64,000 nucleotides of DNA from Candidatus Komeilibacteria bacterium (lineage in GTDB: Bacteria; Patescibacteriota; Patescibacteriia; UBA1558): NCBI GenBank assembly GCA_048538235.1, contig JBLYPX010000001.1, positions 679,554 through 743,553 of the forward strand, given 5' to 3'. Below are positions 6,419 to 26,600 of the stretch, in pieces (positions within the stretch are counted from its first letter, which is position 1; every line of letters begins with the position of its first letter). Below the pieces are notes generated by a model. It did not search any database, had not been told where the DNA came from, and worked only from the letters and a program-made list of their open reading frames with translations. Both the position numbers and the translations under genes were made by a program.

Positions 6419-6420
6419 AA

Positions 6421-6975: not shown

Positions 6976-6980
6976 ATGTA

Positions 6981-7751: not shown

Positions 7752-7780
7752 AGGTCAATTATACCATTTTTTAGAGTATC

Positions 7781-7812
7781 AAAAAACCCGCTAAATAATG
7801 TTAACGGGTTTT
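7781..7812 (-). terminator. rho-independent terminator/attenuator after the major pilin gene
   Basis: On the minus strand the sequence is AAAACCCGTTAACATTATTTAGCGGGTTTTTT. This gives an 8-bp stem (one G-U pair), a 6-nt loop and a U-tract, about 20 nt downstream of the pilA stop and upstream of pilD. Confidence 0.6.
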
Positions 7813-7830
7813 AAAACTATAATCTAAATA

Positions 7831-8304: not shown

Positions 8305-8338
8305 ATTTTTTTCTTAAATCTACTAAAAAGTAGTGTAT

Positions 8339-8367
8339 TTATTAAATATATAAGTTATCTATGTCAA
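8339..8367 (-). promoter_or_regulatory. sigma70-like promoter for pilA
   Basis: On the minus strand: TTGACA, a 17-nt spacer, then TAATAA. It lies within the 111-nt pilC-pilA gap, with a small inverted repeat CTACTTTTTAGTAG downstream. Confidence 0.4.
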
Positions 8368-8415
8368 TATTATATAATATTTCGTAAAATTCGTAAACAC
8401 CTCCTGTAGATAAGT

Positions 8416-9624: not shown

Positions 9625-10701
9625 TTAGAATTTTTTTAAACTATTTTCAAAATTAACTTTATCTATAACTTCTGGCAAAGCATCCTCTTTAGCAACCTCA
9701 CCTGTTCTAACAAGCTCAACTAAAGACACATCTAGTGCAAACATGCCTAATTCTCTATTACTCTGCAATATACTAAATATCTGATAAAGCTTATCTTCTT
9801 TAATAGATCCAGCTACAGCCTGATTCATTAATAATAGTTCAGCTGCCATCGCAAGTCCTCCACCAACTCTTGGTAATAATCTTTGGATTAAAACTGCCTC
9901 TAAATTATTAACTAGTAACTCTCTAATCCAACCACGCTCACTGTCTGGATAACAGTTAATAATTCTTTCTAAAGCAAGTGTTGATGTTTCTGTTGTCATT
10001 ACCACAAACACAAGCCTACCAGCTTCAGTATGTTTTAGTATTAAATTCCACTCTTCATAATTTGTCACCCCGCTTACCATCATAACGTCTATATCTTGAT
10101 CTAAAGATTGCTCTAAAGCTTCTTTAACACTATTTACATCTTTTCCAACCTCTCTTTGAGAGATAATACTCTTATTATTAGCAAGTAGAAACTCAAGTGG
10201 CTTTTCAATAGTTACTATATTCTCACTTCTTGTATTATTAATATAATTTAATAAAGCTGCCGTTGTAGTTGATCTACCAGAACCAAATGTTCCACCAACA
10301 ACCACTAAGCCTTTGGTTAGATTAGCAATCTTTTCAATATTGTGTGGTAAACCAAGAGTGCTTAAATCTGGTACCATCTCTGGAATTAAATGAATAGATA
10401 ATACTGGTATTCCCTTTTGATAAAAAACCTTTATCTTTAAACGCAACTGATTCATCCATTCATAGATTATGGTTGCATCTTTTTTATCTTTTAATTCAAC
10501 TAAACCTTCCTCAGAAAAAAAGAATCCTAATAATTGCTCAATGAAATCTGGAGTTACCACCTCTTCATTGTCTAAATTAACGAGCTTGCCATTAATTCTA
10601 AGTGAAGGATAATTACCAGCTGAGAAATGTAAATCTGATGCTTTTCTTTCAGCAGCAGTTCCTAATATTCTATTTATAATCAAAGTATCTGTTGTTCCCA
10701 T
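9625..10701 (-). CDS. PilT-like ATPase homolog with substituted catalytic motifs (predicted inactive)
   Basis: 358 aa with clear PilT-family similarity, but key motifs are substituted. Walker A is GGTFGSGRSTT (Lys replaced by Arg). The Walker B region is DVMMVSGVTN (no catalytic Glu). The His box is AGRLVFVVMTTETS (no His). Confidence 0.7.
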   Translation of the reverse strand: MGTTDTLIINRILGTAAERKASDLHFSAGNYPSLRINGKLVNLDNEEVVTPDFIEQLLGFFFSEEGLVELKDKKDATIIYEWMNQLRLKIKVFYQKGIPVLSIHLIPEMVPDLSTLGLPHNIEKIANLTKGLVVVGGTFGSGRSTTTAALLNYINNTRSENIVTIEKPLEFLLANNKSIISQREVGKDVNSVKEALEQSLDQDIDVMMVSGVTNYEEWNLILKHTEAGRLVFVVMTTETSTLALERIINCYPDSERGWIRELLVNNLEAVLIQRLLPRVGGGLAMAAELLLMNQAVAGSIKEDKLYQIFSILQSNRELGMFALDVSLVELVRTGEVAKEDALPEVIDKVNFENSLKKF

Positions 10702-10710
10702 AACAATATA

Positions 10711-11088
10711 TTAACTAATTATTTTTTCTATTTTACTAATAACTTCTGATGGCACAAAGTGTGCTTTTATTAAATAATCTACGGCTCCTAATTGTAAACA
10801 TTTCTGCACATCCTCCCTTTCACTCATATTACTTAAAACAATAACTGGTATGTCTTGTGTATTCTTATCTATTTTCAATTCTTCTAATACTTCAAAGCCA
10901 CTTTTTAATGGAATAAGTAAATCTAATAGTATAATGTCCGGCTTTAACTCTTTAGCCTTTTTTAATGCCTGAATACCATCACTAGCAGACTTTACTTCAT
11001 AACCAGCCTTAGTAAGCTTTGTGGTATACATTTGTAGCAAAAAAGAATCGTCTTCTACTATTAATATTTGTTTAATATTTTCTTCCAT
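10711..11088 (-). CDS. stand-alone CheY-like response regulator receiver
   Basis: 125 aa. It has ILIVEDD, the phospho-acceptor Asp in PDIILLDLLIP, a conserved Ser (VIVLSNMSE) and a conserved Lys (YLIKAH). Confidence 0.8.
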   Translation of the reverse strand: MEENIKQILIVEDDSFLLQMYTTKLTKAGYEVKSASDGIQALKKAKELKPDIILLDLLIPLKSGFEVLEELKIDKNTQDIPVIVLSNMSEREDVQKCLQLGAVDYLIKAHFVPSEVISKIEKIIS

Positions 11089-11092
11089 ATAT

Positions 11093-12865
11093 TTATTCTT
11101 CAGACTCTTCTTGTCTAGTTACACGTATAACTTCTTCTACGGTTGTAATACCTAGGATAGCCTTCATGAAACCATCTTGTTTCATATCATAATAACCTTG
11201 CTTAACCAATTCTTCTCTAAAATTATTTTTATCGAAATCTTCTGAAATAATATTTCTCATCTCTTTATTAATGTAAATAACTTCAGATATTACAAATCTA
11301 CCTTTATACCCTGTTTGCCCGCAATGATTACAACCTTCACCTTTATAGAACTTAAGATTATTCAAATCTACTCCCTCATAATGATACTCTGGTTTTATAT
11401 CACCAACGCTTTCCTTAACTAATTTTATTGCATCAGCTGGTACCTGATCTTCAATTTTACACTTTGGACATATTTTTCTAATAAGTCTTTGTGCGATAAC
11501 AAGATTTAAAGTTGAACCTAATAAAAATGACTCTACGCCCATATCTAAAAATCTAGGCACAGCACCTTCAGCATCGTTAGTATGAAGAGTAGAAAGAACA
11601 AAGTGACCTGTTAAAGCAGCGTGAATAGCAAGCTCTGCTGTTTCACCGTCACGAATCTCACCAACCATGACTATGTCTGGATCTTGTCTAAGCAATGACC
11701 TTAAACCAGATGCAAACTTATATCCAATATCTGCATGTACCTGCGATTGATTAACTCCAGGAATAAAATACTCAACCGGATCTTCTAGGGTAGAAATATT
11801 AACTTCTTCTTTATTTAAAATATCTAGAGCTGAAAAAAGAGTAGTAGATTTACCAGAACCAGTAGGACCAGTAACCAGGAACATTCCATTTGGTTTTTTA
11901 AGCTCTTTATGTAAAACATCTCTTTGGTGTCCCATAAATCCAAGATCTTCTAAAGATGGGGCTTTATCTGGTGATTCTAAAATACGCATAACCACCTTTT
12001 CTTTACCAACCAACGGCAGCGTAGATACACGAAAATCTACATCTTTATCGTGTATATTTAAACGAATACGTCCATCCTGTGGAATACGAGTTTCATCTAT
12101 TTTTAGATTGGATAAAACTTTAATACGAGTAACAATTGCTGAATGAACATAGGCTGGCAATGTAAGAGATGTGTGTAAAATACCATCAATACGATAACGA
12201 ACCCTTGAATCATCACCATATGGTTCAATGTGTATATCTGAAGCAGCGCCATCAACAGCGTGCCTAATAATAACAGATACCATTTTAGAAACTGGAGCAG
12301 ATTTAATTATTTCATCTAAATCTCCTTCTGCATCCTCAAGTTTAATACCTGTACCTTCTTTTTTCTTTTGAAATTTCTGTTCAGCAGCTCCTAACACCTC
12401 TCCCACTTCTTGGGTTAATGTTTCGTATTTCTTTATTGCCCAATCAAAACTAATTGTAGATATTACATAGTATTTAACTTGCAAATTATTCTTTCTTGCT
12501 AAATACTCAATAGCCTCTAAAGCTTGAAAGTTCGTTGGATCAACCAAACCTACTTGCAATTCATCATCTTTACTACCAAAAACAATCATCTGGTAATTAA
12601 GGGCTAAGTCTTGTGGTAAAAACTTCAAATGAGCATCCTCGATAGGCATGTCCTGTAAATTAACATAAGGCACATTAAGGACCTCACCCTTTACTCTAGC
12701 ATACTCTTCTGGTTCAACTAATTTGTCTTCTAAAATAATTTTCTCAATTGGACTGCTGGTTGATTCTTGCTTAGCCAAAATCTCCTGATACTGCTGAGAA
12801 GTTATCAGGCCACGTTCTATTAACTTATCTAATAGAGGATTATTTCCTTTTATTTTAGCTGCCAT
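11093..12865 (-). CDS. pilB: type IV pilus assembly ATPase (GspE family)
   Basis: 590 aa with an N-terminal GSPII_E-N-like domain. Walker A is VTGPTGSGKSTT; the Asp and His boxes are intact (DPDIVMVGEIRD...TGHFVLSTLHTND). The tetracysteine is CPKC...CNHC. Confidence 0.9.
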   Translation of the reverse strand: MAAKIKGNNPLLDKLIERGLITSQQYQEILAKQESTSSPIEKIILEDKLVEPEEYARVKGEVLNVPYVNLQDMPIEDAHLKFLPQDLALNYQMIVFGSKDDELQVGLVDPTNFQALEAIEYLARKNNLQVKYYVISTISFDWAIKKYETLTQEVGEVLGAAEQKFQKKKEGTGIKLEDAEGDLDEIIKSAPVSKMVSVIIRHAVDGAASDIHIEPYGDDSRVRYRIDGILHTSLTLPAYVHSAIVTRIKVLSNLKIDETRIPQDGRIRLNIHDKDVDFRVSTLPLVGKEKVVMRILESPDKAPSLEDLGFMGHQRDVLHKELKKPNGMFLVTGPTGSGKSTTLFSALDILNKEEVNISTLEDPVEYFIPGVNQSQVHADIGYKFASGLRSLLRQDPDIVMVGEIRDGETAELAIHAALTGHFVLSTLHTNDAEGAVPRFLDMGVESFLLGSTLNLVIAQRLIRKICPKCKIEDQVPADAIKLVKESVGDIKPEYHYEGVDLNNLKFYKGEGCNHCGQTGYKGRFVISEVIYINKEMRNIISEDFDKNNFREELVKQGYYDMKQDGFMKAILGITTVEEVIRVTRQEESEE

Positions 12866-12868: not shown

Positions 12869-13204
12869 TTAAAACCTTTCTGGAATAAATTCTTTAACTT
12901 GGAATGGTTTTTCATTACCAATATCGTCATCTTTAACAACTGGCAAACCTACACCACCCTTCATTCTTTTATATATATCATACTCTGTAAAATTCATATC
13001 TAATGCTTTAATTACATCATCCACTTTTTTTGTTTTACGAACCTGCATAAAACCAGGAGACAATAAATCATTATCCAGTGTTTCATCATATTCTACTACT
13101 GCATTTTGACCTAATAACATATATGCCATTGCACCAAAACAGATGACTAGTATCACTATCATAATGGCATTTTTTTGTTTTGATGGTTTTTTCTTAGCTA
13201 GCAT
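12869..13204 (-). CDS. small membrane-anchored protein (possible PilP-like accessory protein)
   Basis: 111 aa with a single N-terminal TM. It sits between the pilO-like gene and pilB with overlapping or coupled boundaries. Confidence 0.35.
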   Translation of the reverse strand: MLAKKKPSKQKNAIMIVILVICFGAMAYMLLGQNAVVEYDETLDNDLLSPGFMQVRKTKKVDDVIKALDMNFTEYDIYKRMKGGVGLPVVKDDDIGNEKPFQVKEFIPERF

Positions 13205-13883
13205 CGTCTTGATCTAAATAGTAAGTTCTAAAATTAAATGAATATTTTTTAGTAGCTATTTCTTCTCCGTCTTGACCAACATAACTAGGTTCAGATAAAG
13301 CACTAAAGTTAACTGTTACTAAATTAAATAGTCTAACATTATCTTCTATTCTCTTTAGCAAACCTTTAAACTCATTATACCCTCCACCTTCAACAGATAT
13401 CTCAATATCTACTGCCTTAAGTTCTGAAGGTAGTCCGTCCCAATCCATAAAATCTGCTACTTGGAATTCGATTAATTGATCTATATCTGTTTTAACATCA
13501 TTAATAGATATTTGCTCTAGAATAAATCCACTTTCAGAAACAAGTCTTTCAATTTCCACAAACAAAGATTGTACATTAGCTTTATCTGGTAATATATTAT
13601 TTATCTTTTCTAATTCTCTGGAATTCTCCGCACTAGTAATATATGAATACTTTTCCTCAAGTGTTTTTAATTTACTTAAGTATAATTTTTTGTCATCTCT
13701 TTCCTGTCTCAATTCTGGCACCCTATTATTATTTTGATGTTGTATGTCGCTAAACTTTGGCCACAACACAAGCCAGACTCCCAAAACAAATACAATAACA
13801 ACAAAACCAATACTAATATATTTATAATATGTATTAAGGGTATAATTTAATTTACTTATTTCTTTTTCTTCTTTCTCTATCAT
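13194..13883 (-). CDS. PilO-like bitopic pilus alignment protein
   Basis: 229 aa with a single TM near the N-terminus and a coiled-coil-rich region. It sits after the pilM and pilN-like genes. Confidence 0.5.
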   Translation of the reverse strand: MIEKEEKEISKLNYTLNTYYKYISIGFVVIVFVLGVWLVLWPKFSDIQHQNNNRVPELRQERDDKKLYLSKLKTLEEKYSYITSAENSRELEKINNILPDKANVQSLFVEIERLVSESGFILEQISINDVKTDIDQLIEFQVADFMDWDGLPSELKAVDIEISVEGGGYNEFKGLLKRIEDNVRLFNLVTVNFSALSEPSYVGQDGEEIATKKYSFNFRTYYLDQDDAS

Positions 13884-13884
13884 A

Positions 13885-14742
13885 TTATTTCTTTTCTACA
13901 AAGTTTTGATCATAAAATACATCCCTGTATAAATTAACCAGGGCATTATAGCTAATACCAATACCTTCATCGAGTGATGCTTCAGCCACACTAAAACCAC
14001 CAAATATTTCTGGGAATCTCTCATAAGCAATTAATTGCTCAGCTACGGTTGTAAAACTTTTAGCATAGGATGCTAAATTAATATCTGAGTTAACTAATGA
14101 AGCGGTAAATCCACTGTAATATACTTCTGGTAAGGTGGTCTTTTCTAAAACATCAAAAAAGTTTGTCCAATATACATGACTTCTTAATAGACTATCTACT
14201 GCAGATAGTTTCAACTGCCAGCTCTCAGCATCATTTAAATCACCACTATACTTTGCTATTTCTTTATCTAACTCTTCAATCTCAACTTCTAATGCTAAAC
14301 CTTCTTCCGTAACTTTTAATCCGTAAAAAGAAATAACTGTAAATATACCAACTAAAATTATAATAGTAACAATCAACCAAACAGACATCATAGAAATTAA
14401 TTTGTTGGTTGAACGAAATCTAAAGGTTGCTGGTAATAAATTAACATCAAAACCTTTTCTAACTTTTTCTGAACCACCCTCTTCCAATTTCTTTTTAAGT
14501 ATTGGTTCTTTTTTAAGTTTTTCTTTCTTTACTTTAACCTCTTGAATAATTGGTTCTTTAATATCTTCTTTTGGCAAATCTGCCATCTGTTCTTTTGCAA
14601 CAGCTAACAAGTCTATTGATTCACCATCTTTTTTACCGTTAACAGGGTGTAATAAACTACGTAAAAAACTACCTTGCTTTTTTACTTTAGGTTTTTTTTC
14701 TTCCCTCTTTTCTTCTTTTTTATTTTGTAGAAAATCTACCAT
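13885..14742 (-). CDS. PilN-like bitopic protein with extended Lys-rich N-terminal region
   Basis: 285 aa. It has a single TM (LISMMSVWLIVTIIILVGIF) followed by a coiled coil. The start is 2 nt after the pilM stop. Confidence 0.5.
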   Translation of the reverse strand: MVDFLQNKKEEKREEKKPKVKKQGSFLRSLLHPVNGKKDGESIDLLAVAKEQMADLPKEDIKEPIIQEVKVKKEKLKKEPILKKKLEEGGSEKVRKGFDVNLLPATFRFRSTNKLISMMSVWLIVTIIILVGIFTVISFYGLKVTEEGLALEVEIEELDKEIAKYSGDLNDAESWQLKLSAVDSLLRSHVYWTNFFDVLEKTTLPEVYYSGFTASLVNSDINLASYAKSFTTVAEQLIAYERFPEIFGGFSVAEASLDEGIGISYNALVNLYRDVFYDQNFVEKK

Positions 14743-14744: not shown

Positions 14745-15881
14745 TTACATATCTCGCATAGCCAAGCCAACAGCTACGGCCATACGATTACCTATTTTAT
14801 CTAACATTGGTTTTAAGTCTGGAGAATACTCTAATTTATCCCATGGATTACCAATATATACTGGTACATTAAATAGACTTAAGAAATAATCTGGCAAGTT
14901 TGGTAAAAAGGCTGAACCACCAGATAAAAGTATTTTAGAAACTCCTTGTGAGGATTGTCCTCTATACATGTCAAAAACATAACGAACCTCATTAATAATT
15001 GGTCCAAGCGATGCTTCAATAGTTTTTGGTATTCCCTTCTTTGTTTCCCCTAAAACAAGACCAAAATCTCTCTTGAATTGTTCTGCCCTATCTTCACTAA
15101 TATTTAAACTTGCGGCAATTGCTTTTGTAACAGTTAAACCACCAACGTCTATGCTTCTATTAAGAACTGGCAAGCCGTTATCTACAATAGAAATATCTGT
15201 TGTTATAGAACCAATATCTACAATCATGGTTAGCTCTTTATCTTTACCAAGCAGAGCTCTAGACATTGCAAAAGCTTCTGTTTCTAAAGACAAAAGATTA
15301 AGACCTGCTCCTTTAAACACTTCTAAATATTTATTAACTAAAGCTTTTGGAGCAGCCGTTACCAACACCTTAGTATAATCTTTTTGTTGAGAAATAATCT
15401 TACTAGAACCACCCTCATCACCTAGTTCTGCACCTTCTTTAACTTCTTCTTTTTTCTTAAATAAACCTGAGCCAGTTTTTTCTTTAACAGTATCTTCTCT
15501 ATCTACCAGTTTCCAATCTAGTATCATATCCTCCAGTGGTAATGGTATGTATTTTTTTGCTTCCCATTTAATAGCTTCCGGCATTTCTTTATCTGGAAGC
15601 TTTGGTAGATTAATTAAAAGGGTAAAGACTGCAAAAGTTGGTAAAGCCGCAATAGCTTGTGTTGTAGAAGTGCCAGCTTTTTCCATTAACTTTTTTAACA
15701 CATCTATTAATCTTTGCTTACTCTCCGGAGTATTCTCATGAATAATATCGTTCGCAACATCAACATAACCAAAAGTATCCAGAATGGTTTTTTTTCCATC
15801 ATTTGTAAGTTGGACCAGCTTAATGCTGGCCGTACCAATATCCACTCCTAAATATGAATTCTTTTTAGAAAATAATCCCAT
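14745..15881 (-). CDS. pilM: type IV pilus assembly protein PilM (actin-like ATPase fold)
   Basis: 378 aa. The N-terminus SYLGVDIGTASIKLVQL is the PilM/FtsA-like phosphate-1 motif. Confidence 0.8.
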   Translation of the reverse strand: MGLFSKKNSYLGVDIGTASIKLVQLTNDGKKTILDTFGYVDVANDIIHENTPESKQRLIDVLKKLMEKAGTSTTQAIAALPTFAVFTLLINLPKLPDKEMPEAIKWEAKKYIPLPLEDMILDWKLVDREDTVKEKTGSGLFKKKEEVKEGAELGDEGGSSKIISQQKDYTKVLVTAAPKALVNKYLEVFKGAGLNLLSLETEAFAMSRALLGKDKELTMIVDIGSITTDISIVDNGLPVLNRSIDVGGLTVTKAIAASLNISEDRAEQFKRDFGLVLGETKKGIPKTIEASLGPIINEVRYVFDMYRGQSSQGVSKILLSGGSAFLPNLPDYFLSLFNVPVYIGNPWDKLEYSPDLKPMLDKIGNRMAVAVGLAMRDM

Positions 15882-15898: not shown

Positions 15899-17362
15899 TT
15901 ATCTACTCCACTCTGGTAAATAACCAACAAAGTTTCCTAGCCCTGGTGGTGTATTTAACAAAACACGACCATCATATTCAAATATTTCAGATGGTGACAA
16001 ACTACTAAAGTAAGTTCTTTCAAGAATAATTTCTTTAGCAACCACCACACCAGAAAAATCTAACTGAACTTTTGTCTCAACAGCATCTCCATCATCATCA
16101 CCTGTGTAGAATTTACCAGAACCAGCAGTTCCATTACCCAAAACTACAAATGCACCAACAACACTTGAAACACTCTTGTTTATATATACATCCCCTAGAA
16201 CGACCCATGATACAGAAGCTATTTCATTTAAATTATCTGGTACACCAGAACCATAGCCAGTCTTAGCATTAATGTATAGATCTCCATCAATAACTATAGT
16301 GCCAGCACCTGAGCCTGTAATTGCATCATCAAAATCTAAGGAAGAATTAATATTAAAATCTACACTATCTCTAGTTGTGCTAGTGAAATAGTATACATTA
16401 CCAGCCAAGGAATTATTATTTGGTAATTCAGTAATATTATATGTATCTGAATCTACATCATAATATTTATTATTTGCTTTAGATAATGCCTCTAAATAGT
16501 CTACATCTAACTGCACAATAGAAGTGCTATATGACTCACTAGCTGTAGGGAAATCTATATCTATACCACCAATTAAACATGACTTACTACTAGATAAAGT
16601 TATGTCATTATTTGAGCCAGAAATAATACAATAGGTGGCATTATATGCACCTTCTGGGGCTCTAGATCCTGTTACAGTTCCACCGCTATATATATCGCTA
16701 TACTGAGTCTTAATATATGGACCACCACTAAATGTCTCATCAAAATATATCCAACCTAAACCATCATCACCACCAGACCAAGCCCAGCCAGCTAAATAAC
16801 CATGTTCATTCAATCTAACACAATAGTTTGTTTCGTCAGGATCTACTGTATTACATTCCTCAGCTGCCCTAAATCTAATCCAAGCATTATTATTTGGATC
16901 AGTATCATTAAAAGTAGCTACAGCCCAACCCTCTAAATACCTACTCTCTACATCTAATTGAACAGTGTGAGCATAATTATCTCCACCACTTATTGTAGGT
17001 AATGAACCTACGCTGCCAGCACCAATTGTTGGACTAAAATCTATCCAGCCAGCATTAGTTGACCAAGCAAATCCATCCATAACGCCAGTCTCAGGATCAA
17101 GCTCTACAGCATAATCTGAATAACTTTCACTGGCACAATGTCTTGTTAATTGCGCATCATTTTCACCAGCATAAACATTAATACAATTCAAAGACACCCA
17201 ACCAAAAGTATCTGTCCAACCCCAACCAGTTAGCTCGCCATCTGGCAAAACAGCTGGTTCAGCAAAAGCAACTGGCTGCATATACACCATGAATAGAATA
17301 GATATTGTAAGTAGTATAAAAATGAATACTACATAATGATAAATGTTGGTAATAGTTTTCAT
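15899..17362 (-). CDS. secreted Gly/Trp/Asp-rich protein of unknown function at the head of the pilus operon
   Basis: 487 aa with an N-terminal signal-like segment (MKTITNIYHYVVFIFILLTISILFMVYMQPVAFA). It is rich in GW/WS motifs. It sits 17 nt upstream of pilM on the same strand. Confidence 0.6.
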   Translation of the reverse strand: MKTITNIYHYVVFIFILLTISILFMVYMQPVAFAEPAVLPDGELTGWGWTDTFGWVSLNCINVYAGENDAQLTRHCASESYSDYAVELDPETGVMDGFAWSTNAGWIDFSPTIGAGSVGSLPTISGGDNYAHTVQLDVESRYLEGWAVATFNDTDPNNNAWIRFRAAEECNTVDPDETNYCVRLNEHGYLAGWAWSGGDDGLGWIYFDETFSGGPYIKTQYSDIYSGGTVTGSRAPEGAYNATYCIISGSNNDITLSSSKSCLIGGIDIDFPTASESYSTSIVQLDVDYLEALSKANNKYYDVDSDTYNITELPNNNSLAGNVYYFTSTTRDSVDFNINSSLDFDDAITGSGAGTIVIDGDLYINAKTGYGSGVPDNLNEIASVSWVVLGDVYINKSVSSVVGAFVVLGNGTAGSGKFYTGDDDGDAVETKVQLDFSGVVVAKEIILERTYFSSLSPSEIFEYDGRVLLNTPPGLGNFVGYLPEWSR

Positions 17363-19042
17363 TTATTTAATTAAAAAGAGTAATTCTTGTAACTGACTTT
17401 CGTTTATACAAACTTTTCCAATACACAACTCATCGGCTACTATTGTGCCATCAACATTTGCATCCTGATCAAAATCTACATCACCAGCCACTCTTAAATT
17501 ACCATGAATACCAGTATCTCCATCTGCAAACTCAACTTCAAATCTTACTTGTCCGCCTTGTCTACTCAATATTTGAACACCTTTTGTAGCAGCTTCATAC
17601 CCAGTAAGTTGTAAGGCTTCACCAGTTACATACCAAGCGCCAGTGTCAGACTTGAAGTCTTTACCTATTGCCCATTGATCGTTTACAAAACGAATCCTGT
17701 CGCCGCTGCTTATCTGAATATCCCCATCAACTGTCAATTTATCATAGACCTTAACACCATAACTATTATCTCCATTTAAGTACAAATAATTTCCACTCGC
17801 ACCATTTATTTGAGAAATATCATCTGGAGATAAATCCATAGAAATTGTTATTGAGTCATTTGATCCACCAACTACACTAATGTTCGCTCCATCATTGATA
17901 TATAATCTATCTGCGCTACTATCTGCTTGAGGATCATCACCACTATCTACATCAATAAACTTAAATGCTTGCCCGCCAGATCCACCACCAGATGACCACT
18001 CTGTTATACAGCTATCATTTAAACAAATCTCATAATCTGTACCAGCACCACCAATTTGCACCTTTTTTGGATCAGAGGATTCAACTTTTAAAACCTCATA
18101 CTCTTCATATGTTGACGGCGTACCATTATAGCCTGGGTTATTCCAAAAAGTATTAGCTGTTTTAACTATAAACTCTGGATACCTTTCATGGGTTCCAGAA
18201 TATGTATACCAAGGAATCACGTCATTATATACATTATGTGTAGTTACAAAATTACTACCATTGCCAACTAGAATAGTACCTCTTAAATATGCTCCATAGG
18301 CTCCTGCATATGACCTTGTATGAAGTGCTACACCACGACTAGTAAAACCTTGGAAAAAACCACCATATGAATAAGCACAGAGATTAGTCTCATCGAATTC
18401 AGCTCCAGTAGAAGTTGTGCAAACGTCTGAAGAGTATGGATCAGAGCTAACATTTTTATCTGTAGTAACGCCCCAAATAGCAGCACTATTTTTTACTTGA
18501 GTAGCACCTGAATCATAACCCGTTAAAGATGAATGATTTAAATCTGCAGCTCTAGCATAAACAGCGAATCCATAAGATCCTTCCAAACCTCCATTAATAT
18601 ATATGCCATTATTACCAGGCATACTAATTGTCTGCCCCTCTTCTAAAGCTATACCACTACTAGCAACAATGATTTTATCAAAATATGTTGTTTCAGAACT
18701 GTATGTTCCCCAACAGTTATCCATATTACCGTAACAAGTTGGACTTATCTGAAATATGTCCTGAGTAGCATAAGTTGCACTTGGATTAACATCTATCTTA
18801 GAACCAACGACAAGGCCGCTACCCGAACTAATTGAGGTATCAAAAGTATCAACACCATCTCCCTGAACCGTCAAAGTATGACCTTCTTGAATTGTTCCAC
18901 CCTCAACAGTAATGGGTTCTGGACGATTACATCCAGGAGGAGCACAACTTGGATCACTCCAGGCAGCCTCCACAGGGCTTAAATTAATAACAAAAAATAA
19001 CAATCCGAAAAATAGAATTGTCATAATTACTTTACTGTTCAT
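17363..19042 (-). CDS. secreted Gly-rich protein of unknown function (first gene of the pilus array)
   Basis: 559 aa with a signal peptide (FFGLLFFVINLSPVEAAW) and conserved Cys pairs. It is directly adjacent (0-nt gap) to the next ORF. Confidence 0.6.
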   Translation of the reverse strand: MNSKVIMTILFFGLLFFVINLSPVEAAWSDPSCAPPGCNRPEPITVEGGTIQEGHTLTVQGDGVDTFDTSISSGSGLVVGSKIDVNPSATYATQDIFQISPTCYGNMDNCWGTYSSETTYFDKIIVASSGIALEEGQTISMPGNNGIYINGGLEGSYGFAVYARAADLNHSSLTGYDSGATQVKNSAAIWGVTTDKNVSSDPYSSDVCTTSTGAEFDETNLCAYSYGGFFQGFTSRGVALHTRSYAGAYGAYLRGTILVGNGSNFVTTHNVYNDVIPWYTYSGTHERYPEFIVKTANTFWNNPGYNGTPSTYEEYEVLKVESSDPKKVQIGGAGTDYEICLNDSCITEWSSGGGSGGQAFKFIDVDSGDDPQADSSADRLYINDGANISVVGGSNDSITISMDLSPDDISQINGASGNYLYLNGDNSYGVKVYDKLTVDGDIQISSGDRIRFVNDQWAIGKDFKSDTGAWYVTGEALQLTGYEAATKGVQILSRQGGQVRFEVEFADGDTGIHGNLRVAGDVDFDQDANVDGTIVADELCIGKVCINESQLQELLFLIK

Positions 19043-19066: not shown

Positions 19067-19095
19067 TTGACCATTTGGTGACTTTATTATACAAT
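19067..19095 (+). promoter_or_regulatory. sigma70-like promoter for the lemA-htpX transcript (divergent from the pilus array)
   Basis: TTGACC, a 17-nt spacer, then TACAAT. On the opposite strand there is an extended -10 (TGTATAAT) at ~19086..19093 for the minus-strand array. Confidence 0.45.
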
Positions 19096-19122
19096 ATATC
19101 TGTTAATCCGTAAACTAAATAT

Positions 19123-19395
19123 ATGAATACATTGAACAATCAAAAAACAACCTTAATAATTATTATTGCTGTTGTAGTAATAATTGCGGTTGCTCTAACC
19201 CTATTAAGCTACCAGCAGGGGTATAAAAGTGGTCTTAACGTAAAACAGGGTATATATGACAACCTAGAGGACAACCAATCCCTAGAGAGCGGAACAGAGA
19301 GTGTGGATGAAAATGGAATGCCTACATACAACTTAGATAGTTACGACAACGCCTTGCTAGAAAAGTATAAACATCTAAATAACGACGAACAATAA
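19123..19395 (+). CDS. small single-TM protein
   Basis: 90 aa with a hydrophobic N-terminus followed by an acidic tail. It precedes lemA. Confidence 0.45.
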   Translation: MNTLNNQKTTLIIIIAVVVIIAVALTLLSYQQGYKSGLNVKQGIYDNLEDNQSLESGTESVDENGMPTYNLDSYDNALLEKYKHLNNDEQ

Positions 19396-19399
19396 AAAT

Positions 19400-19951
19400 A
19401 TGAACACACTTATTTACATTATAATAGCAGTAGTTGTAGTTTTAATATTTTGGCTAATTGCTCTATACAATGGATTAATCAGATTAAAAAACAGAACAGA
19501 TGAAGCTTGGTCAGATATAGACGTACAACTTAAAAGACGTTATGACCTTATTCCAAACCTTATTGAAACTGTTAAAGGTTACGCTCAACATGAGAAAGAA
19601 ACATTAGAGAATGTTATTAAAGCTCGTAACTCTGCCATGAGTGCAGAAGGTAGTAAGAAGGCAGAAGCAGAAAATGCCTTGTCTGAAACATTAAAATCTA
19701 TCTTTGCTCTGTCTGAGAATTATCCTGATCTAAAGGCAAACCAAAACTTTTTACAATTACAAGATGAGTTATCAGATACAGAAAATAAAATACAAGCAGC
19801 CAGAAGGTTCTACAACACAAACGTTAGAGACTTTAATACAAAAATACAAACTTTTCCTAACAATATCATTGCTGGAAAATTAAAATTCACCAGTAAAGAA
19901 TTCTTTCAAGCAGATGATGTTGAGAAAGAAAATATTGCAGTTAAGTTCTAA
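19400..19951 (+). CDS. lemA: LemA family protein
   Basis: 183 aa with N-terminal TM and LemA-like NGLIRLKNRTDEAWSDIDVQLKRRYDLIPNLIETVKGYAQHEKETLENV. Confidence 0.8.
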   Translation: MNTLIYIIIAVVVVLIFWLIALYNGLIRLKNRTDEAWSDIDVQLKRRYDLIPNLIETVKGYAQHEKETLENVIKARNSAMSAEGSKKAEAENALSETLKSIFALSENYPDLKANQNFLQLQDELSDTENKIQAARRFYNTNVRDFNTKIQTFPNNIIAGKLKFTSKEFFQADDVEKENIAVKF

Positions 19952-19953
19952 AA

Positions 19954-20853
19954 ATGTATTCACAAATAGACTCAAATAAACGCAAAACATGGGCTTTAAT
20001 GCTCATTTTTGTGTTAGTTATATCTCTACTCGGCTATGTTTTTAACATGTGGTATGGCGATTCAAGCTACGGTATTTTAATAATAGCTGTAATATTTTCT
20101 TTACTTGGCGCAACCTTTAGCTACTACTCTGGAGATAAAGTAGCACTAGCATCAGCAGGTGCTAAACAAATACAAAAAATGGACAACCCTTATGTATACA
20201 GAATGGTTGAAAATCTTTGTATCACCTCTGGTTTGCCAGCGCCAAAGGTACATATCATACCAGATGATAGTATTAATGCTTTTGCAACCGGTAGAGATCC
20301 AGAGCACGCCTCTATTGCTATTACAACTGGTGCCATAGATAAACTTACTAATGAAGAACTTGAAGGAGTTATTGCTCACGAATTATCTCACATTAAAAAT
20401 TACGATATCAGATTAATGATGATAGTAATTATTTGTATTGGTATTATTACCCTACTGGCTGACTGGATGATTAGAGCTAGACTTTATGGAATAGGGGGTA
20501 AGAAAAGTAATGATAGTAATTCTGGACAACTTGGATCTATCATTTTAATAGTTGGCTTAATACTAGCAATCCTTTCACCAATATTTGCCAGATTAATACA
20601 ATTCGCTGTTTCTAGAAAAAGAGAGTATTTAGCAGATGCATCAGGTGCTATGCTTACTAGATATCCAGAAGGACTAGCAAACGCCCTTGAAAAGATTAAA
20701 CTGCAAAATAAACCATTAAAAAAAGTTAATAAAGCTACAGCTCATCTATATATCTCTAGCCCATTCCTAGGCGCAAAAAGGGGTCTTAGAAAAGCTTTTG
20801 CTACTCATCCAGACATAGACGATAGAATAGCTAAACTACGAAATATGGCTTAA
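19954..20853 (+). CDS. htpX: M48 zinc metalloprotease HtpX
   Basis: 299 aa with an HExxH motif (IAHELSHIKNYD) and four TM segments. Confidence 0.85.
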   Translation: MYSQIDSNKRKTWALMLIFVLVISLLGYVFNMWYGDSSYGILIIAVIFSLLGATFSYYSGDKVALASAGAKQIQKMDNPYVYRMVENLCITSGLPAPKVHIIPDDSINAFATGRDPEHASIAITTGAIDKLTNEELEGVIAHELSHIKNYDIRLMMIVIICIGIITLLADWMIRARLYGIGGKKSNDSNSGQLGSIILIVGLILAILSPIFARLIQFAVSRKREYLADASGAMLTRYPEGLANALEKIKLQNKPLKKVNKATAHLYISSPFLGAKRGLRKAFATHPDIDDRIAKLRNMA

Positions 20854-22832: not shown

Positions 22833-23639
22833 TTATATTGCTAATTGCAAACTACTACCCAATGTCTGTAATTTATTCCAGTTAAACGAATTGTCCTTAG
22901 CATCTACATAGGCCATCAATATATATTTAGGCTTATCTTCGTCTAACATATTATCTATTATAGCCATAACCACCATAGCTGAATCTTCTTTAGACAACTT
23001 AAGCTTGTCTACTAAAACCATCTCTAAGGCTAAACTCAGCAAAGCTGGCGTAGGTTTTGCTTCTATCATGGTTTCTGCAATCTCATCTGTATATTTAACA
23101 GCTATATATTTTTTTAATATACCTTTAAACCTTGAATCTTGTTGCCATGTTTTTACTAACTCTCCCGTACGTGCCAACCAAGATAAAACAACAACAACTT
23201 CCTCTGCCTTGCCTAGTCCTAAACTTTTCCAAAGATAGTTTCTAATTCTTGATACATCGCCGCTAGAAATTCTTCCTAGTTCTTCCATAGACTTTGTTAA
23301 AGATTTTGGCTTAATAAAATCTTTCCAAATAGTATTCACTGGAACAGAAACACTTTCATCCTCTAATTCTTCTTCCTCTTCCTCAAAATCTTCGTCACCA
23401 TCTACATAAAATGGCTCGATAATATTTTCACTCAAGGCATCAATAAAATCGTTAGCTTTTTCTTCTTCAAAATTAAGATCTTCAATTAAAAAATCAACTG
23501 CTTCTTTATTACTTGCTTCGCCTTCTAAAATTGCCTGTGCTAATTCACCAGGAAAATAATTATATTTTAAAGCTAATAAATTCAAATCTCCTAGAACTTC
23601 TTTTCTATTTAAATATTCTTCTATTTCTTTATTCTTCAT
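22833..23639 (-). CDS. acidic hypothetical protein, translationally coupled to the upstream giant ORF
   Basis: 268 aa with an Asp/Glu-rich stretch (DGDEDFEEEEEELEDES). Its start overlaps the stop of ORF 23629..28722 by 11 nt. Confidence 0.5.
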   Translation of the reverse strand: MKNKEIEEYLNRKEVLGDLNLLALKYNYFPGELAQAILEGEASNKEAVDFLIEDLNFEEEKANDFIDALSENIIEPFYVDGDEDFEEEEEELEDESVSVPVNTIWKDFIKPKSLTKSMEELGRISSGDVSRIRNYLWKSLGLGKAEEVVVVLSWLARTGELVKTWQQDSRFKGILKKYIAVKYTDEIAETMIEAKPTPALLSLALEMVLVDKLKLSKEDSAMVVMAIIDNMLDEDKPKYILMAYVDAKDNSFNWNKLQTLGSSLQLAI

Positions 23640-26600
23640 CTTCTTGCTCGCTTGTATAATTAGAAACTATTTGTTCTATCTCATCGCCAGAAAGACCCTC
23701 TTCCTCTAAAATCACTTTCATATCTACATCCCCTCCACCGCTTGTATTAATATTACTAATCCTCTGATTAACATTAGCTATTTTATCTTGCATTTCATTG
23801 CTAAACGCTGCTTGACTAGCTCCCATCTTTTTAACTTGGGAAGATTGCTGTTCAAACCATTTCTTCATAGCCAAGAACTGTGCCATAGATAATGGTTTAC
23901 TTAAGAATGAACCACTACTTGTTTTGGGTATATTAATACCTCCCTTATTCGAGCTTTGCTTTGCTTTGCCAGCGTTAAGCATTCCTGGTGGTATATTGCT
24001 TAAAAATTGATCCATCTGTCCAGATATAACATTCATAGCCTCCTCGTCAGTACTGTTTGATGTATTATCTGTTTGTGCTAACAATTTTCTCAACTCTTCC
24101 AAAAACTTTTTATTATCTGGCTCGTTCTTTTCTTCTTCAGGTAAATTTATTTCTATTTCTTTTTCTAGAGCTTGTAAACTATTTTGTATCTGCTCTTTTG
24201 TACTATTCCTATCTGCTATCACTTTAGACAAATCACTAACCCTATCCTTAACTGAACTTTGAGTATCTCTGGCTGCTTGAGTGCTTCTAGTTGCTTCAGA
24301 GCTAGCAACAGACTCCTTCTCTGAATCTCTTGATGATGTTTGCTTGTCTTGGCCAGCACTTTCTGCCTTAGAAGTTGAAACTGTTTCTACAGATGAAGAT
24401 GATTCTCCTTGTACAGAACTTTGAGTATCTCTGGCTGCTTGAGTGCTTCTAGTTGCTTCAGAGCTAGCAACAGACTCCTTCTCTGAATCCCTTGAAGATG
24501 TTTGCTTGTCTTGGCCAGCACTTTCTGCCTTAGAAGTTGAAACTGTTTCTACAGATGAAGATGATTCTCCTTGTACAGAACTTTGAGTATCTCTGGCTTT
24601 TTCAGCACTGCTCATTGATTCTGAACTAGCCGTTGATCTATCTGAATCTCTTGATGATGTTTCTTTATTAGAACCAGCTTTCTCAGTATTTGTTGTTGAT
24701 CTGGACACCTCGTTTGCTCTAGCCCTTGCCTCTTCTGCTTTGGTTTTTTGCTTGCTAGCTAAAGATTCTAAACTCTTTATTTCTTTTTCATGTGATGTTT
24801 TATATTTCTGATTTTCTGTAGAAATCCTAGAAGCTTCTTTTCGTAAAGCATTTGCCTTCTTAGTAGCTTCATTATATCTATACATAGCTCCTTCTGGATT
24901 TACATAGTTTGGATCTTCATATTCCTTTTTAGCCTGGGCAGCATCTTTTTCATACGATTCCGCTCTACCAGTCAAGTCTTTAACCTTGCTATTATTATCA
25001 TTATAGCTCTTTGCAAATAAAGCTTTTGTAGCGTTTATTACATCTTGCGTTTTATAATAATCATCTTCTTTGGCTACAGCTTTATTCTCTTCAGACTGTC
25101 GCTTAATTTCTTCTTTATTCATAGCTTTGTTTACAACACTACTTTGGTAAACATCTAGAGCATCTTCATCTCTATCTGCATCATACCCCTGACCACCATT
25201 AACAATCATAAATTCTTCTTTTTGCTCATTGCTCATACTAGACCAATCATTTAAAGCTTGTTCCCTTAATCTTTCTTCCGTCTTCTGACGCTCTTGTTCT
25301 GAGTTAGCAGCTCTTATATTCTCTTTCCGCTCTTTTTTCATTGCCTTACGTTCTTTTCTTGATTCAAAGAAACTCTTCCCCTTTTCTACGCTTACACCAC
25401 CCTCACTGACTGTCATATCTTTTGCATTAATAATCCTATCTACAAAGGGTTGAGGAAGTTTAGGTTTAGATTTATCTATAACACCGTTCTTTCCAACATT
25501 GGCAATAGCGTCTGCCAAATATTCTTTTCTAATATCACCCTCAGTCATGTTTGGTTGATTTCTGTCTTCTCTAATATATTGACGGGCACTTTCTTTTTCA
25601 GCAACGGTCATACTATTCCACACATCTTCTTGAATAGAGCCATCCGAATCGACACCTTCAATGGTACTATGAGCTTTCTCATGACGAATTAACTGTTTGG
25701 CGTCTTTTCCTTTTCTTGATTTATTAACCAAAACCAAACCATCTGATTTTATTCTTTCTTCATCATTTAAATTGTTTAACAATTGATCAACACCACTAAC
25801 TCTTTCACCTGATTCAGTCTCAATTCCATGCAAGGTATCATTCTTTACTTGTTGTAAGTCTGCGTCTTTGCTTGGTTTTACGCCAAAATATTCTAAAGCT
25901 GTTCTGATATCTTCATCCTCCTCTGCTGATTCAAGCTCACTTTGATAAGCTTGCACCATTTCTTTCATAGCACTAGCTGCTTTAATAGCTTCTTCACCGT
26001 TAACAAACATACCAGCCTTTCTTTTCTGACCGGTTAAACCACCTTCTACTCTTTCATTCAGTTCATTGAAATCTACTGCTGTCATATTACCACTTCTAGC
26101 AAGCGATCCCATTGTAATACCTCCTTGAGTTGATTTACTTATTTTTGAATATTCTGAATATTGATCCTGATTTAAATATTCACTACTCTTTTCTTCCTCA
26201 CTTAAAGATTTATATTTGTCTGAGTTATAGAAACGCTCCCCTAAGACACTAGCATTATTTGCAACAAACTCATCCTTATTTACTTCTCTGGTTTCATCAC
26301 CCTTCTTAAGAACAACATTACTGTTTTCATTTCTACTAGTAGCTTCTTGATCAACCTGCCAATCTTTACCTTCTTCACTCATATCTGCTCTAACCATGTC
26401 TGTTGGCATAAGATTACTAATTTCATTTTCTACAGCTAAACCTGTATTTAAAATCTGATCGTCTGAAACTTGAGAATCTACCATATAATCTTTAGTGGAT
26501 TTCTTTACCTCTACATCACTAATCTTTTTAGGTTCTCCTTGAACACTTATACTTTCATTGGATAAATTTTGATCATAATATTTAGAGGCCTCGTTGCTTA

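What the first reader, a model, noticed from the sequence alone, without database searches (positions are those of the whole stretch)
15899..19042. Two large secreted Gly/Trp-rich proteins are the first genes of the 19-kb pilus array
ORFs of 559 and 487 aa abut each other and then pilM, with 0-nt and 17-nt gaps, on one strand. Both have N-terminal signal-like segments. They are rich in Gly, Ser, Asp, Trp and Tyr, with short W-containing repeats (GWGW, GWAW, AGW) and paired Cys, and have no enzyme motifs. They lack prepilin signals, so they are not pilins. Their position ahead of pilM, behind an extended -10 promoter (TGTATAAT), suggests pilus-associated surface or tip proteins, or an exported substrate. 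This gene pair is not part of any canonical type IV pilus operon I know.
Basis: inference. Interest (0 to 1): 0.5.

Follow-up and report, generated by a model that had tools for sequence, protein, structure and literature searches.

The report
Pilus-linked secreted protein pair in Patescibacteria
The two genes are real. They open a type IV pilus operon of an ultrasmall (Patescibacteria) bacterium: the second belongs to an unnamed family that almost always sits directly ahead of pilM and has a fold like known pilus-tip proteins, and the first is a fast-evolving fibre-like partner, so together they probably link the pilus to whatever the cell grabs.

Summary
Two abutting minus-strand genes, A559 (17363-19042) and B487 (15899-17362), precede pilM with 0-nt and 17-nt gaps. 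Both have Sec-type N-termini, neither is a prepilin, and neither has a Pfam or NCBIfam hit. Corrections: only B487 is Trp-rich and carries the W repeats. TGTATAAT is one base off the extended -10 register. The pilus genes span 14.7 kb, not 19 kb.

A559 diverges much faster. Its only broadly conserved part is a roughly 35-aa module at the mature N-terminus. In the DNA searched, that module occurs only in genes upstream of B-family genes on the same strand.

Best reading (about 0.45): B is a free-standing, Sec-exported version of the beta-solenoid pilus-tip plug or adaptor, and A is a variable target-binding fibre docked through its N-terminal module. Main rival: B is a machine or cell-wall anchor at the pilus base. 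This is a new variant of a known kind.

The parts
19086..19114 (-). Promoter-like site TTTACG-17-TATAAT upstream of A559.
   Evidence: 10 of 12 matches; TG not in the extended -10 register; such sites are not above chance in this region; for the sequence.
17363..19042 (-). A559: secreted, fast-evolving, probably fibre-like protein and first cistron of the operon.
   Evidence: There are 8 homologues, all in or near Komeilibacteria. No Pfam, NCBIfam, PHROG or PDB sequence hit. The AF2 model failed (pLDDT 31).
18965..19042 (-). A559 residues 1-26: Sec-type signal peptide (MNSKVIMTILFFGLLFFVINLSPVEA|A).
   Evidence: Sequence inspection. The N-terminus is conserved in L007. No SignalP was available.
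18860..18964 (-). A559 residues 27-61: conserved mature-N-terminal module (A-W-S-D-P-S-C-A-P-P-G-C-N-R-P-E-P-I-T-V...). The general pattern is W-x-x-P-x3-PP-x1-2-N.
   Evidence: An HMM of this module gave 19 locus hits in 18 loci plus A559 itself. All are on the same strand and upstream of the B-family gene (17 end within 1.3 kb of it; in L038 and L012 the hit lies further upstream). No other ORF of the 64-kb window matches.
17828..17971 (-). A559 residues 358-405: one copy of a widespread ~50-aa repeat (F-K-x-I-x-V-x2-G-x-D-P-x-A-D-x3-D-x-L-x4-G-x-N-I-x3-G-x3-D-x-I-T-I).
   Evidence: The A2 profile found 1055 representative proteins, and in the 150 listed nearly all match through this stretch, with up to 17 copies per protein. 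Such proteins hit PHROG 677 'baseplate wedge tail fiber protein connector' but no Pfam family.
17366..17431 (-). A559 residues 538-559: invariant C-x4-C knot (LCIGKVCI) followed by a C-terminal amphipathic helix. A second invariant C-x4-C (EICLNDSCITEW) lies at residues 338-349 (17996..18031).
   Evidence: Alignment A2: C340, C345, C540 and C545 are invariant.
15899..17362 (-). B487: member of an unannotated Patescibacteria family that is genetically locked to pilM.
   Evidence: 65 homologues; 71 loci, 65 of 70 evaluable next to pilM; AF2 model with pLDDT 77.
17261..17362 (-). B487 residues 1-34: Sec signal peptide or N-terminal anchor. The hydrophobic stretch is 18-22 aa and ends in AFA|E.
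   Evidence: Sequence. AF2 predicts a helix at 2-27. Most family members have AxA-type sites. Whether it is cleaved was not testable.
16733..17242 (-). B487 residues 41-210: four W-hairpin repeats (G-W/F-x-W-x3-10-G-W-I-x-F), each about 45-50 aa with a disulfide pair.
   Evidence: W47, W49, W100, W106, W146, W161, W195, W204 and F207 are at least 90% conserved. Strand pairs appear in the model. No Pfam hit, including the cell-wall-binding repeat families.
16523..16732 (-). B487 residues 211-280: conserved inter-domain segment (PYxxTxYGDIYSxGxIxG...YNATY...FP). AF2 confidence is low for residues 236-275.
15977..16522 (-). B487 residues 281-462: beta-solenoid with a flanking helix (287-296), of the ice-binding-protein / ComZ type.
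15902..15976 (-). B487 residues 463-487: invariant C-terminal tail Y-D-G-R-x3-N-T-P-P-G-L-x2-F-x3-L-P-x-W.
   Evidence: Alignments A1 and A3. The pattern YDGRx[LVI][AVL]NTP retrieved 71 confirmed loci. It is present even in the Saccharibacteria members L072 and L077.
14745..15881 (-). pilM.
   Evidence: TIGR01175 6.7e-54; PF11104 9.7e-46.
12869..14742 (-). pilN-like (13885..14742), pilO (13194..13883) and a conserved small 111-aa membrane protein (12869..13204).
   Evidence: PilO has a weak Pfam hit. The position is conserved in related loci.
4370..12865 (-). Remaining pilus genes: pilB (11093..12865), response regulator (10711..11088), pilT (9625..10701), pilC (8416..9624), major pilin (7831..8304), prepilin peptidase (6981..7751), and four small minor or pilin-like genes (6421..6975, 5807..6418, 5223..5816, 4370..5233).
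   Evidence: Pfam hits T2SSE, Response_reg, T2SSF, N_methyl and Peptidase_A24; translations.

Best explanation
A559 and B487 are the first two cistrons of a type IVa-like pilus operon of a Candidatus Komeilibacteria (Patescibacteria/CPR) genome. Both are exported by Sec and neither is a pilin.

B487 is a small member of a family seen only in Patescibacteria. Its conserved core is a W-hairpin module, an ice-binding-protein/ComZ-like beta-solenoid and an invariant C-terminal tail. I propose it is an extracellular accessory subunit of the pilus. It would be a free-standing version of the beta-solenoid 'tip plug/adhesin' module that Thermus ComZ and cyanobacterial PilX carry inserted in a pilin fold. 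In this model B docks to the pilus through its conserved C-terminal half and serves as the adaptor for variable binding parts. The docking partner would most likely be the complex of the four small minor pilins, or alternatively PilN/PilO.

The variable parts are either B's own N-terminal extension, which reaches more than 3,000 aa in relatives, or a separately encoded partner. A559 is such a partner: a fast-evolving, probably oligomeric fibre. Its conserved 35-aa mature N-terminus would dock to B or the pilus, and its variable body would bind the surface of the host or prey cell. PilT-driven retraction would then pull the cell onto its target.

Shown here: the genes are real, the operon arrangement, the synteny, the fold class of B487's C-terminal domain, and the divergence rates. 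Inferred: export and cleavage, docking, location on the pilus, and adhesin function.
For: 1. Linkage of B to pilM. The B-family gene is directly upstream of pilM in 6 of 6 protein look-ups and in 65 of 70 evaluable loci. Three more loci have one intervening gene, and one exception lies next to pilT. The loci span Komeili-, Buchanan-, Kerfeld-, Falkow-, Parcu- and some Saccharibacteria.
3. Architecture. The C-terminal core is conserved while the N-terminus varies from 490 to more than 3,600 aa. One giant member has Laminin_G_3, fn3 and Kelch hits. This is the same layout as PilY1.
4. Minor pilins. All four in this operon are small (184-287 aa) and none has a bulky domain. Cultured Saccharibacteria lack a B gene ahead of pilM in the Southlakia T4P1 locus, and their tip pilins carry bulky extra domains.
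5. A559. Every homologue with known context keeps the order A, B, pilM. Its N-terminal module was found only in genes upstream of B-family genes on the same strand: it ends within 1.3 kb of B in 16 of 37 evaluable loci, and there are 19 locus hits in 18 loci overall. The rest of the protein is hypervariable and has a tail-fibre-type repeat. A conserved N-terminal dock with a variable body is the layout of receptor-binding fibres.
6. No terminator-like site lies between A, B and pilM, and the gaps are 0 and 17 nt.
Against: - Known tip proteins (PilY1, ComZ, PilX) are encoded with the minor pilins. B is at the opposite end of the operon, next to pilMNO, 9-13 kb from the minor pilins.
- B diverges as slowly as PilN and PilO (0.27 against 0.25 and 0.25 bits per residue). 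That fits a machine part as well as it fits an adaptor.
- B487's hydrophobic N-terminal stretch is long (18-22 aa) and could be an uncleaved membrane anchor, which would keep B at the cell surface.
- The fold similarity is to a general beta-solenoid class that many unrelated adhesins share. There is no sequence-level link to ComZ or to ice-binding proteins.
- The invariant tail may simply be the solenoid's C-terminal cap.
- The complementary-distribution argument rests on two or three genomes.
- No structure could be obtained for A559.
- The reverse census, the fraction of Patescibacteria pilM genes preceded by a B gene, could not be run.
Confidence: 0.45

Rival explanations
1. B487 is a structural part of the pilus machine at the cell envelope. 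It would be a collar, stator or wall anchor sitting on the PilN/PilO ectodomains, doing the job that PilP, PilQ or TsaP do in diderms. It might use the aromatic W-hairpin repeats to hold the peptidoglycan or S-layer. A559 would be an associated surface protein.
For: B is strictly adjacent to pilMNO at the operon head. Its divergence rate equals that of PilN and PilO over nearly full length. The long hydrophobic N-terminus could be an anchor. The W-hairpin pattern (G-W-x-W...G-W-I-x-F) looks superficially like the hairpins of choline/cell-wall-binding repeats; this comparison is from my own knowledge and was not supported by any search.
Against: The essential T4P1 locus of Southlakia has no such gene ahead of pilM, so the pilus does not generally need it. 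Family size ranges up to more than 3,600 aa, with lectin, fn3 and Kelch domains, which is odd for a basal part. Most members have ordinary cleavable signal peptides. No Pfam cell-wall-binding family is hit even at E<=1 in 28 members. The fold neighbours are adhesins or tip proteins, not secretins or PilP.
Confidence: 0.28
2. A559 and B487 are cargo: exoproteins released or displayed by the pilus-like system acting as a type II secretion-like exporter.
For: They are encoded in the same operon as the machine. They carry Sec signals and are not pilins.
Against: In a cell without an outer membrane, Sec export already places a protein outside the membrane. This rests on general knowledge of monoderm envelopes, and the envelope of this organism was not examined. 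T2SS substrates are rarely locked to one position next to pilM across a phylum. B evolves like a machine part. Neither protein has an enzyme or toxin domain.
Confidence: 0.07
3. B487 is an enzyme, a beta-helix glycan lyase or hydrolase. It would open the bacterium's own wall for the pilus or attack the host envelope.
Confidence: 0.06
4. The two genes are ordinary surface proteins that merely share a transcript with the pilus genes and have no functional tie to them.
For: No experiment links them to pili. Patescibacteria genomes are rich in large surface proteins (PMC8080830).
Against: Adjacency is conserved in 65 of 70 loci across lineages whose B proteins are only 24-35% identical, while the flanking genes differ (LemA-M48 in some, recJ-RNase H in others). 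Chance hitch-hiking would not survive that much rearrangement.
Confidence: 0.08

Closest known systems
ComZ of Thermus thermophilus (PDB 6qvi), a competence pilus tip pilin
   Different: The ComZ solenoid is inserted into a GspK-like pilin fold, and its gene lies among the minor pilin genes. B487 has no pilin fold or prepilin motif, has a Sec-type N-terminus and lies upstream of pilM. There is no sequence similarity. ComZ binds DNA; nothing is known for B487.
Cyanobacterial PilX minor pilins with a beta-solenoid 'tip plug' (bioRxiv 10.64898/2026.02.12.705559)
   Same: They carry a bulky triangular ice-binding-protein-like solenoid. They are proposed to replace PilY1 in lineages that lack it, and some are greatly expanded.
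   Different: They are pilin fusions, whereas B487 is free-standing.
PilY1 / PilC tip adhesins of proteobacterial type IVa pili
   Same: They are non-pilin, Sec-exported and large. Their conserved C-terminal domain docks to the minor-pilin complex, and their variable N-terminal part binds targets. B-family proteins have the same layout.
   Different: The PilY1 C-terminal domain is a beta-propeller (Pfam Neisseria_PilC), and B487 has no such hit. PilY1 is encoded between minor pilin genes.
Tapirins of Caldicellulosiruptor
   Different: The structural match is much weaker than to ice-binding proteins. There is no sequence similarity. Tapirins bind cellulose and lie at the other side of the locus.
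DUF3494 / type-1 ice-binding proteins (3wp9, 7bwx, 5uyt, 6bg8)
   Different: No Pfam hit even at E<=1. The organism and gene context give no reason to expect ice binding. B487 has an extra W-hairpin domain and the conserved tail.
Phage tail fibres / receptor-binding proteins (compared with A559)
   Same: They have a short conserved N-terminal attachment module and a hypervariable body. A559 contains one ~50-aa repeat, and relatives built from that repeat hit PHROG 677, a tail-fibre connector.
   Different: A559 itself hits no PHROG. It has a Sec signal peptide and lies in a cellular pilus operon with no phage genes nearby.

Membership tests
Type IV pilins / pseudopilins | Class III signal peptide (short leader, G at -1, F/M at +1, E at +5) with an N_methyl motif, followed by a ~50-aa alpha-1 helix | tested here: not met
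   Neither A559 nor B487 has an N_methyl hit, while the operon's true pilins do. Their N-termini are Sec-type and end in AxA. In the B487 model the helix ends at residue 27.
ComZ / PilX-type solenoid tip pilins | Ice-binding-protein-like triangular beta-solenoid | tested here: met
ComZ / PilX-type solenoid tip pilins | Solenoid inserted in a GspK-like pilin fold, with the gene among the minor pilin genes | tested here: not met
   B487 has no pilin domain. Its gene lies upstream of pilM, 9-13 kb from the minor pilins.
ComZ / PilX-type solenoid tip pilins | Location at the pilus tip and binding to a partner minor pilin | not testable with these tools
   This needs complex prediction or experiment.
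PilY1 / PilC | C-terminal PilY1 beta-propeller domain (Pfam Neisseria_PilC) | tested here: not met
   No Pfam hit at E<=1 in B487 or in any of the 28 family members.
PilY1 / PilC | Non-pilin, Sec-exported, with a conserved C-terminal and a variable N-terminal part | tested here: met
   This is an analogy of layout, not homology.
DUF3494 / Ice_binding (Pfam) and choice-of-anchor A (TIGR04215) | Sequence match above the family threshold | tested here: not met
   No Ice_binding hit. Choice-of-anchor A is hit in 3 of 28 members at best E 0.0017, and DUF7305 in 4 of 28 at best 0.0015. DUF7305 scores 18.9 bits against a 27-bit cut-off; the choice-of-anchor A bit score was not shown.
Tapirins | Sequence or close structural homology to the tapirin C-terminal beta-helix | tested here: inconclusive
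Secretin (PilQ) / PilP | Secretin or PilP domains | tested here: not met
Choline / cell-wall-binding repeats (CW_binding_1) | Tandem ~20-aa GW...WYY hairpin repeats detectable by Pfam | tested here: not met
   No hit at E<=1 in 28 members. The repeats in B487 are 45-50 aa apart.
Phage tail-fibre connector-like repeat proteins (PHROG 677) - A559 | Match to the PHROG profile | tested here: not met
   A559 has no PHROG hit at E<=0.01. Only multi-repeat relatives found with the A2 profile hit it, at 4.9e-09 to 9.2e-23.

The most novel reading that the evidence does not exclude
Many Patescibacteria may build a modular host-recognition device on their retractile type IV pilus. A conserved, Sec-exported solenoid adaptor (the B family, marked by the tail YDGRxxxNTPPGL) would plug into the pilus. 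It would carry interchangeable, hypervariable binding fibres, either fused to it as giant N-terminal extensions or encoded next to it as A-class proteins that dock through a 35-aa N-terminal module. This would be a cellular counterpart of the phage adaptor and tail-fibre system, and a determinant of which host an episymbiont can attach to.
Probability: 0.3. Interest if true: 0.75.

Novelty: new variant of a known kind. Interest (0 to 1): 0.55.

Why it matters
Patescibacteria make up a large share of bacterial diversity. All cultivated members live attached to other microbes, and in Southlakia most type IV pilus genes are essential (PMC10633639; PMC11623550). What decides which host they bind is unknown.

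This work points to an unnamed protein family that is locked to pilM across much of the phylum. It has a pilus-tip-like fold and a hypervariable partner or extension. That makes it a concrete candidate for the host-binding end of the pilus.

It also gives a simple sequence handle, the tail motif YDGRxxxNTPPGL, for finding these genes in metagenomes. It would further extend the idea that ice-binding-type solenoids are recurrent pilus-tip modules, adding Patescibacteria to Thermus and cyanobacteria and adding a non-pilin format.

Tried and rejected
- A559 structure. AF2 with the 8-sequence alignment gave pLDDT 31, so no fold search was run on it. A profile search for deeper homologues added only one protein.
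- Sequence searches of A and B. Both found nothing in the PDB, apart from chance-level hits at E>0.09, and nothing in PHROGs.
- Viral structure search with the B487 model (BFVD). It found nothing, so B487 is not a prophage tail spike.
- Foldseek against afdb50. That library was not installed.
- Reverse census starting from PilM in metagenome contigs. The fraction of Patescibacteria pilM genes preceded by a B gene therefore remains unknown.
- The first genome scan with the 28-sequence alignment. It failed for lack of a conserved stretch. A smaller alignment worked.
- Ideas rejected. Prepilin or pilin identity (no motif). Secretin or PilP. Choline-binding repeats (no Pfam support). Glycoside hydrolase or lyase (fold matches are far weaker than to ice-binding proteins). 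Paralogues of A or B elsewhere in the window (none). An extended -10 promoter as evidence of regulation (wrong register, and such sites are at chance frequency).
- Literature. No description of this gene family was found in the Saccharibacteria pilus papers or other Patescibacteria papers read. 'DUF7305' returned no paper.
Full report
**What is in the sequence.** The window comes from a Candidatus Komeilibacteria (Patescibacteria/CPR) genome. Both proteins are 100% identical to NCBI entries ACKKL6_03410 and ACKKL6_03405 on an 860-kb contig. On the minus strand, A559 (17363..19042) is followed by B487 (15899..17362). The A stop TAA abuts the B start ATG. A 17-nt spacer then precedes pilM at 14745..15881 (TIGR01175 6.7e-54).

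The genes that follow are, in order:
- pilN-like, pilO and a conserved 111-aa membrane protein
- pilB, a single-domain response regulator, pilT and pilC
- a major pilin and the prepilin peptidase
- four small minor or pilin-like genes, ending at 4370

After these come ligA, gatC and gatA. No terminator-like site separates A, B and pilM.

A promoter-like TTTACG-17-TATAAT lies at 19114..19086. The TG of 'TGTATAAT' abuts the hexamer, so it is not in the extended -10 register. Such sites are no more frequent here than in shuffled sequence (73 against 69.8).

**Composition.** Gly, Ser, Asp and Tyr are enriched in both proteins relative to the window's other long ORFs. Trp is enriched only in B487 (2.5% against 1.4%), and all GW motifs are in B487. 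Cys residues are paired in both. Both N-termini look like Sec signals ending in AxA-type sites (VEA|A and AFA|E). Neither has a prepilin motif. No SignalP was available. B487's hydrophobic stretch is long (18-22 aa), so an uncleaved anchor cannot be excluded. Neither protein hits any Pfam, NCBIfam or PHROG family or any PDB sequence.

**B487: family and synteny.** A search of 5.8 billion proteins found 65 relatives. Every relative that a source names is from Patescibacteria (Komeili-, Buchanan-, Uhr- and Kerfeldbacteria); most carry no name. They range from 310 to 833 aa. The alignment shows the following parts:
- Four W-hairpin repeats (G-W/F-x-W...G-W-I-x-F, residues 41-210), with nearly invariant aromatic residues and paired Cys.
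- A conserved inter-domain segment (YGDIYS...YNATY).
- A C-terminal domain that ends in an invariant tail, YDGRxxxNTPPGLxxFxxxLP.

In all six contigs looked up through individual homologues of 26-64% identity, the gene lies directly upstream of pilM.

A scan of one genome per GTDB species with the tail pattern gave 71 confirmed loci, all small-genome MAGs. Most are labelled Patescibacteria. Some carry what look like placeholder 'uncultured Gammaproteobacteria' names. In 65 of 70 evaluable loci the pilM ORF begins within 700 nt of the B-family stop. Three more loci have one intervening gene. Of the two exceptions, one lies next to pilT.

Family members run from about 490 aa to open reading frames of more than 3,600 aa. 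Only the part matching B487 residues ~190-487 is shared by all. One giant member has Laminin_G_3, fn3 and Kelch hits in its extension. Two loci are labelled Saccharibacteria and keep the tail motif. The Southlakia T4P1 locus has pilM as its first gene with ychF upstream, so it has no B gene there.

**B487: structure.** The AF2 model (28 sequences, mean pLDDT 77) is confident for the C-terminal domain, with 10-residue block means mostly 84-96 over residues 290-420. The results of the structure searches were:

| Search | Result |
|---|---|
| Foldseek against PDB | ComZ is the top hit (E 0.11, probability 0.99) |
| Foldseek against viral structures (BFVD) | nothing |

The ComZ paper reports that its solenoid is closest to an ice-binding protein and argues that ComZ caps the pilus (PMC6561018). 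A 2026 preprint reports the same kind of solenoid in all cyanobacterial PilX minor pilins and proposes that it replaces PilY1 as a tip plug.

At the sequence level there are only weak, recurrent, non-significant hits to two surface-protein solenoid families: DUF7305 (4 of 28 members, best E 0.0015, 18.9 bits against a 27-bit cut-off) and choice-of-anchor A (3 of 28, best E 0.0017). The W-hairpin domain found no convincing structural or sequence relative.

**A559.** Only eight relatives were found, all in or near Komeilibacteria (31-74% identity). AF2 failed (pLDDT 31). This could reflect the shallow alignment or an obligate oligomeric fibre.

Every homologue whose context is known keeps the order: LemA and a small gene on the opposite strand, then A, B and pilM (window, L006, L007, L008, L078).

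A profile search of 1.84 billion representatives gave 1055 hits. In the 150 listed, nearly all match through one ~50-aa stretch (A559 residues 358-405). That stretch is a repeat present up to 17 times in other large proteins. Such proteins match PHROG 677, a tail-fibre connector, but no Pfam family.

The more telling feature is the mature N-terminus, A-W-S-D-P-S-C-A-P-P-G-C-N-R-P-E-P-I-T-V. In other lineages the gene upstream of the B gene encodes a large secreted protein that cannot otherwise be aligned with A559. It begins, right after its signal peptide, with the same module (W-x-x-P-x3-PP-x-x-N...).

An HMM of this module was searched against all ORFs of the 71 loci and the window. It gave 19 locus hits in 18 loci plus A559 itself. 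All lie on the same strand upstream of the B gene. Seventeen end within 1.3 kb of it, and in L038 and L012 the hit lies further upstream. A module-bearing gene ends within 1.3 kb upstream of B in 16 of 37 loci that have enough upstream sequence. The remaining loci, typically recJ, RNase H, B, pilM, have no such gene.

**Rates of change.** Against the same set of loci, median BLAST bits per residue are:

| Protein | Bits per residue |
|---|---|
| B487 | 0.27 |
| PilN | 0.25 |
| PilO | 0.25 |
| PilM | 0.86 |
| PilB | 0.96 |

A559 is detectable in only two loci. B therefore evolves like the extracytoplasmic machine parts, and A evolves like a receptor-binding protein.

**Interpretation.** What is shown: the pair is real, it forms the head of the operon, B is tied to pilM across much of a phylum, and B's C-terminal domain has the fold class used by known pilus-tip proteins.

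What I infer: B is a free-standing, Sec-exported form of the solenoid tip plug or adaptor. It would dock to the pilus through its conserved core. It would carry variable binding parts, either as its own N-terminal extension or as A-class fibres that dock through their conserved N-terminal module.

Further support:
- The layout resembles PilY1, with a conserved C-terminus and a variable N-terminus.
- The operon's four minor pilins are all small.
- Cultured Saccharibacteria have bulky domains on their tip pilins, and the Southlakia T4P1 locus lacks a B gene ahead of pilM.

Points against:
- B lies next to pilMNO rather than with the minor pilins.
- B changes at a machine-like rate.
- B's N-terminus may be an anchor.
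- Beta-solenoids are a generic fold.

The main rival is that B is a basal collar or wall anchor on PilN/PilO (about 0.28). Cargo, enzyme and hitch-hiker readings are each below 0.1.

**Comparison and novelty.** B is not a member of the pilin, PilY1, secretin, tapirin or DUF3494 families by any sequence test. At fold level it resembles ComZ and PilX solenoids, and in layout it resembles PilY1. No family model names it, and I found no description of it in the Patescibacteria pilus literature I could read. I rate it a new variant of a known kind: a pilus accessory solenoid protein in an unusual format (non-pilin, upstream of pilM, with a modular hypervariable partner).

**What could not be done.**
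- A reverse census from pilM.
- Any complex prediction.
- A usable model of A559.
- A fold search restricted to the W-hairpin domain.

Noticed in passing
window 23629..28722 (-) and 31634..40258 (-): Two giant ORFs of 1697 and 2874 aa have no Pfam hit at E<=0.001. They share no detectable similarity or motifs with A559 or B487. They are probably further large surface proteins.
   Followed up: partly
window 19123..20853 (+); also L001, L006, L007, L008, L010, L017-L024, L035, L036, L039, L043, L054, L076, L078: A divergently transcribed trio sits next to the pilus operon head: a small 90-aa protein, LemA (PF04011 4.3e-62) and an M48 peptidase (1.4e-30). LemA was detected by homology in 18 of the 71 scanned loci and M48 in 15. 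LemA and M48 are much better conserved (about 1.2-1.3 bits per residue) than the pilus parts.
   Followed up: partly
window 12869..13204 (-): A 111-aa protein with one N-terminal membrane helix is encoded between pilO and pilB. A gene of similar size (103-117 aa) holds the same position in L001, L003, L005, L006 and L078, with no Pfam family. It might be a PilP-like fourth alignment protein.
   Followed up: no
window 8369..8397 (-) and 19086..19114 (-): The promoter-like site upstream of the major pilin gene uses exactly the same hexamers and spacing (TTTACG-17-TATAAT) as the one upstream of A559.
   Followed up: no
window 10711..11088 (-): A stand-alone receiver-domain response regulator lies between pilB and pilT. 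It is detected at that place in 33 related loci and is well conserved (about 1.0 bits per residue).
   Followed up: partly
A559 residues 358-405 (window 17828..17971); proteins P0078-P0220: A ~50-aa repeat (FKTIxxPxGTxPxADxxxDTLTLxxGxxIxITGDxxxDxITI) occurs in about a thousand representative proteins, with up to 17 copies each. No Pfam model hit it in the 10 proteins scanned, and only PHROG 677 (tail-fibre connector) touches it. One carrier (P0074, L079) sits next to a 2026-aa Peptidase_S74 protein.
   Followed up: partly
L045, L047, L049, L055, L056, L059-L069, L074, L075: In many Patescibacteria the B-family gene upstream of pilM is a giant ORF of 2,000 to more than 3,600 codons. It often runs off the 7-kb flank, so its N-terminus and any upstream A-like gene were not seen.
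   Followed up: partly
L011, L017, L018, L022, L027, L028, L050-L052, L061, L067, L069, L075, L076: Several MAG records titled 'uncultured Gammaproteobacteria bacterium' (SRP..., ERP... and binchicken isolates) carry this Patescibacteria-type pilus locus. The one complete chromosome among them (L022) is 886 kb. The organism name looks like a placeholder or a mislabel.
   Followed up: no
L036 5867.. and L046 1292.. (B-family proteins): Two Kerfeldbacteria-type B proteins (about 870-890 aa) start their mature chain with A-(V)-D-W-S-D/Q-C, which is reminiscent of A559's A-W-S-D-P-S-C. This may be an A-module-like N-terminus fused to B. The module HMM did not score them.
   Followed up: no
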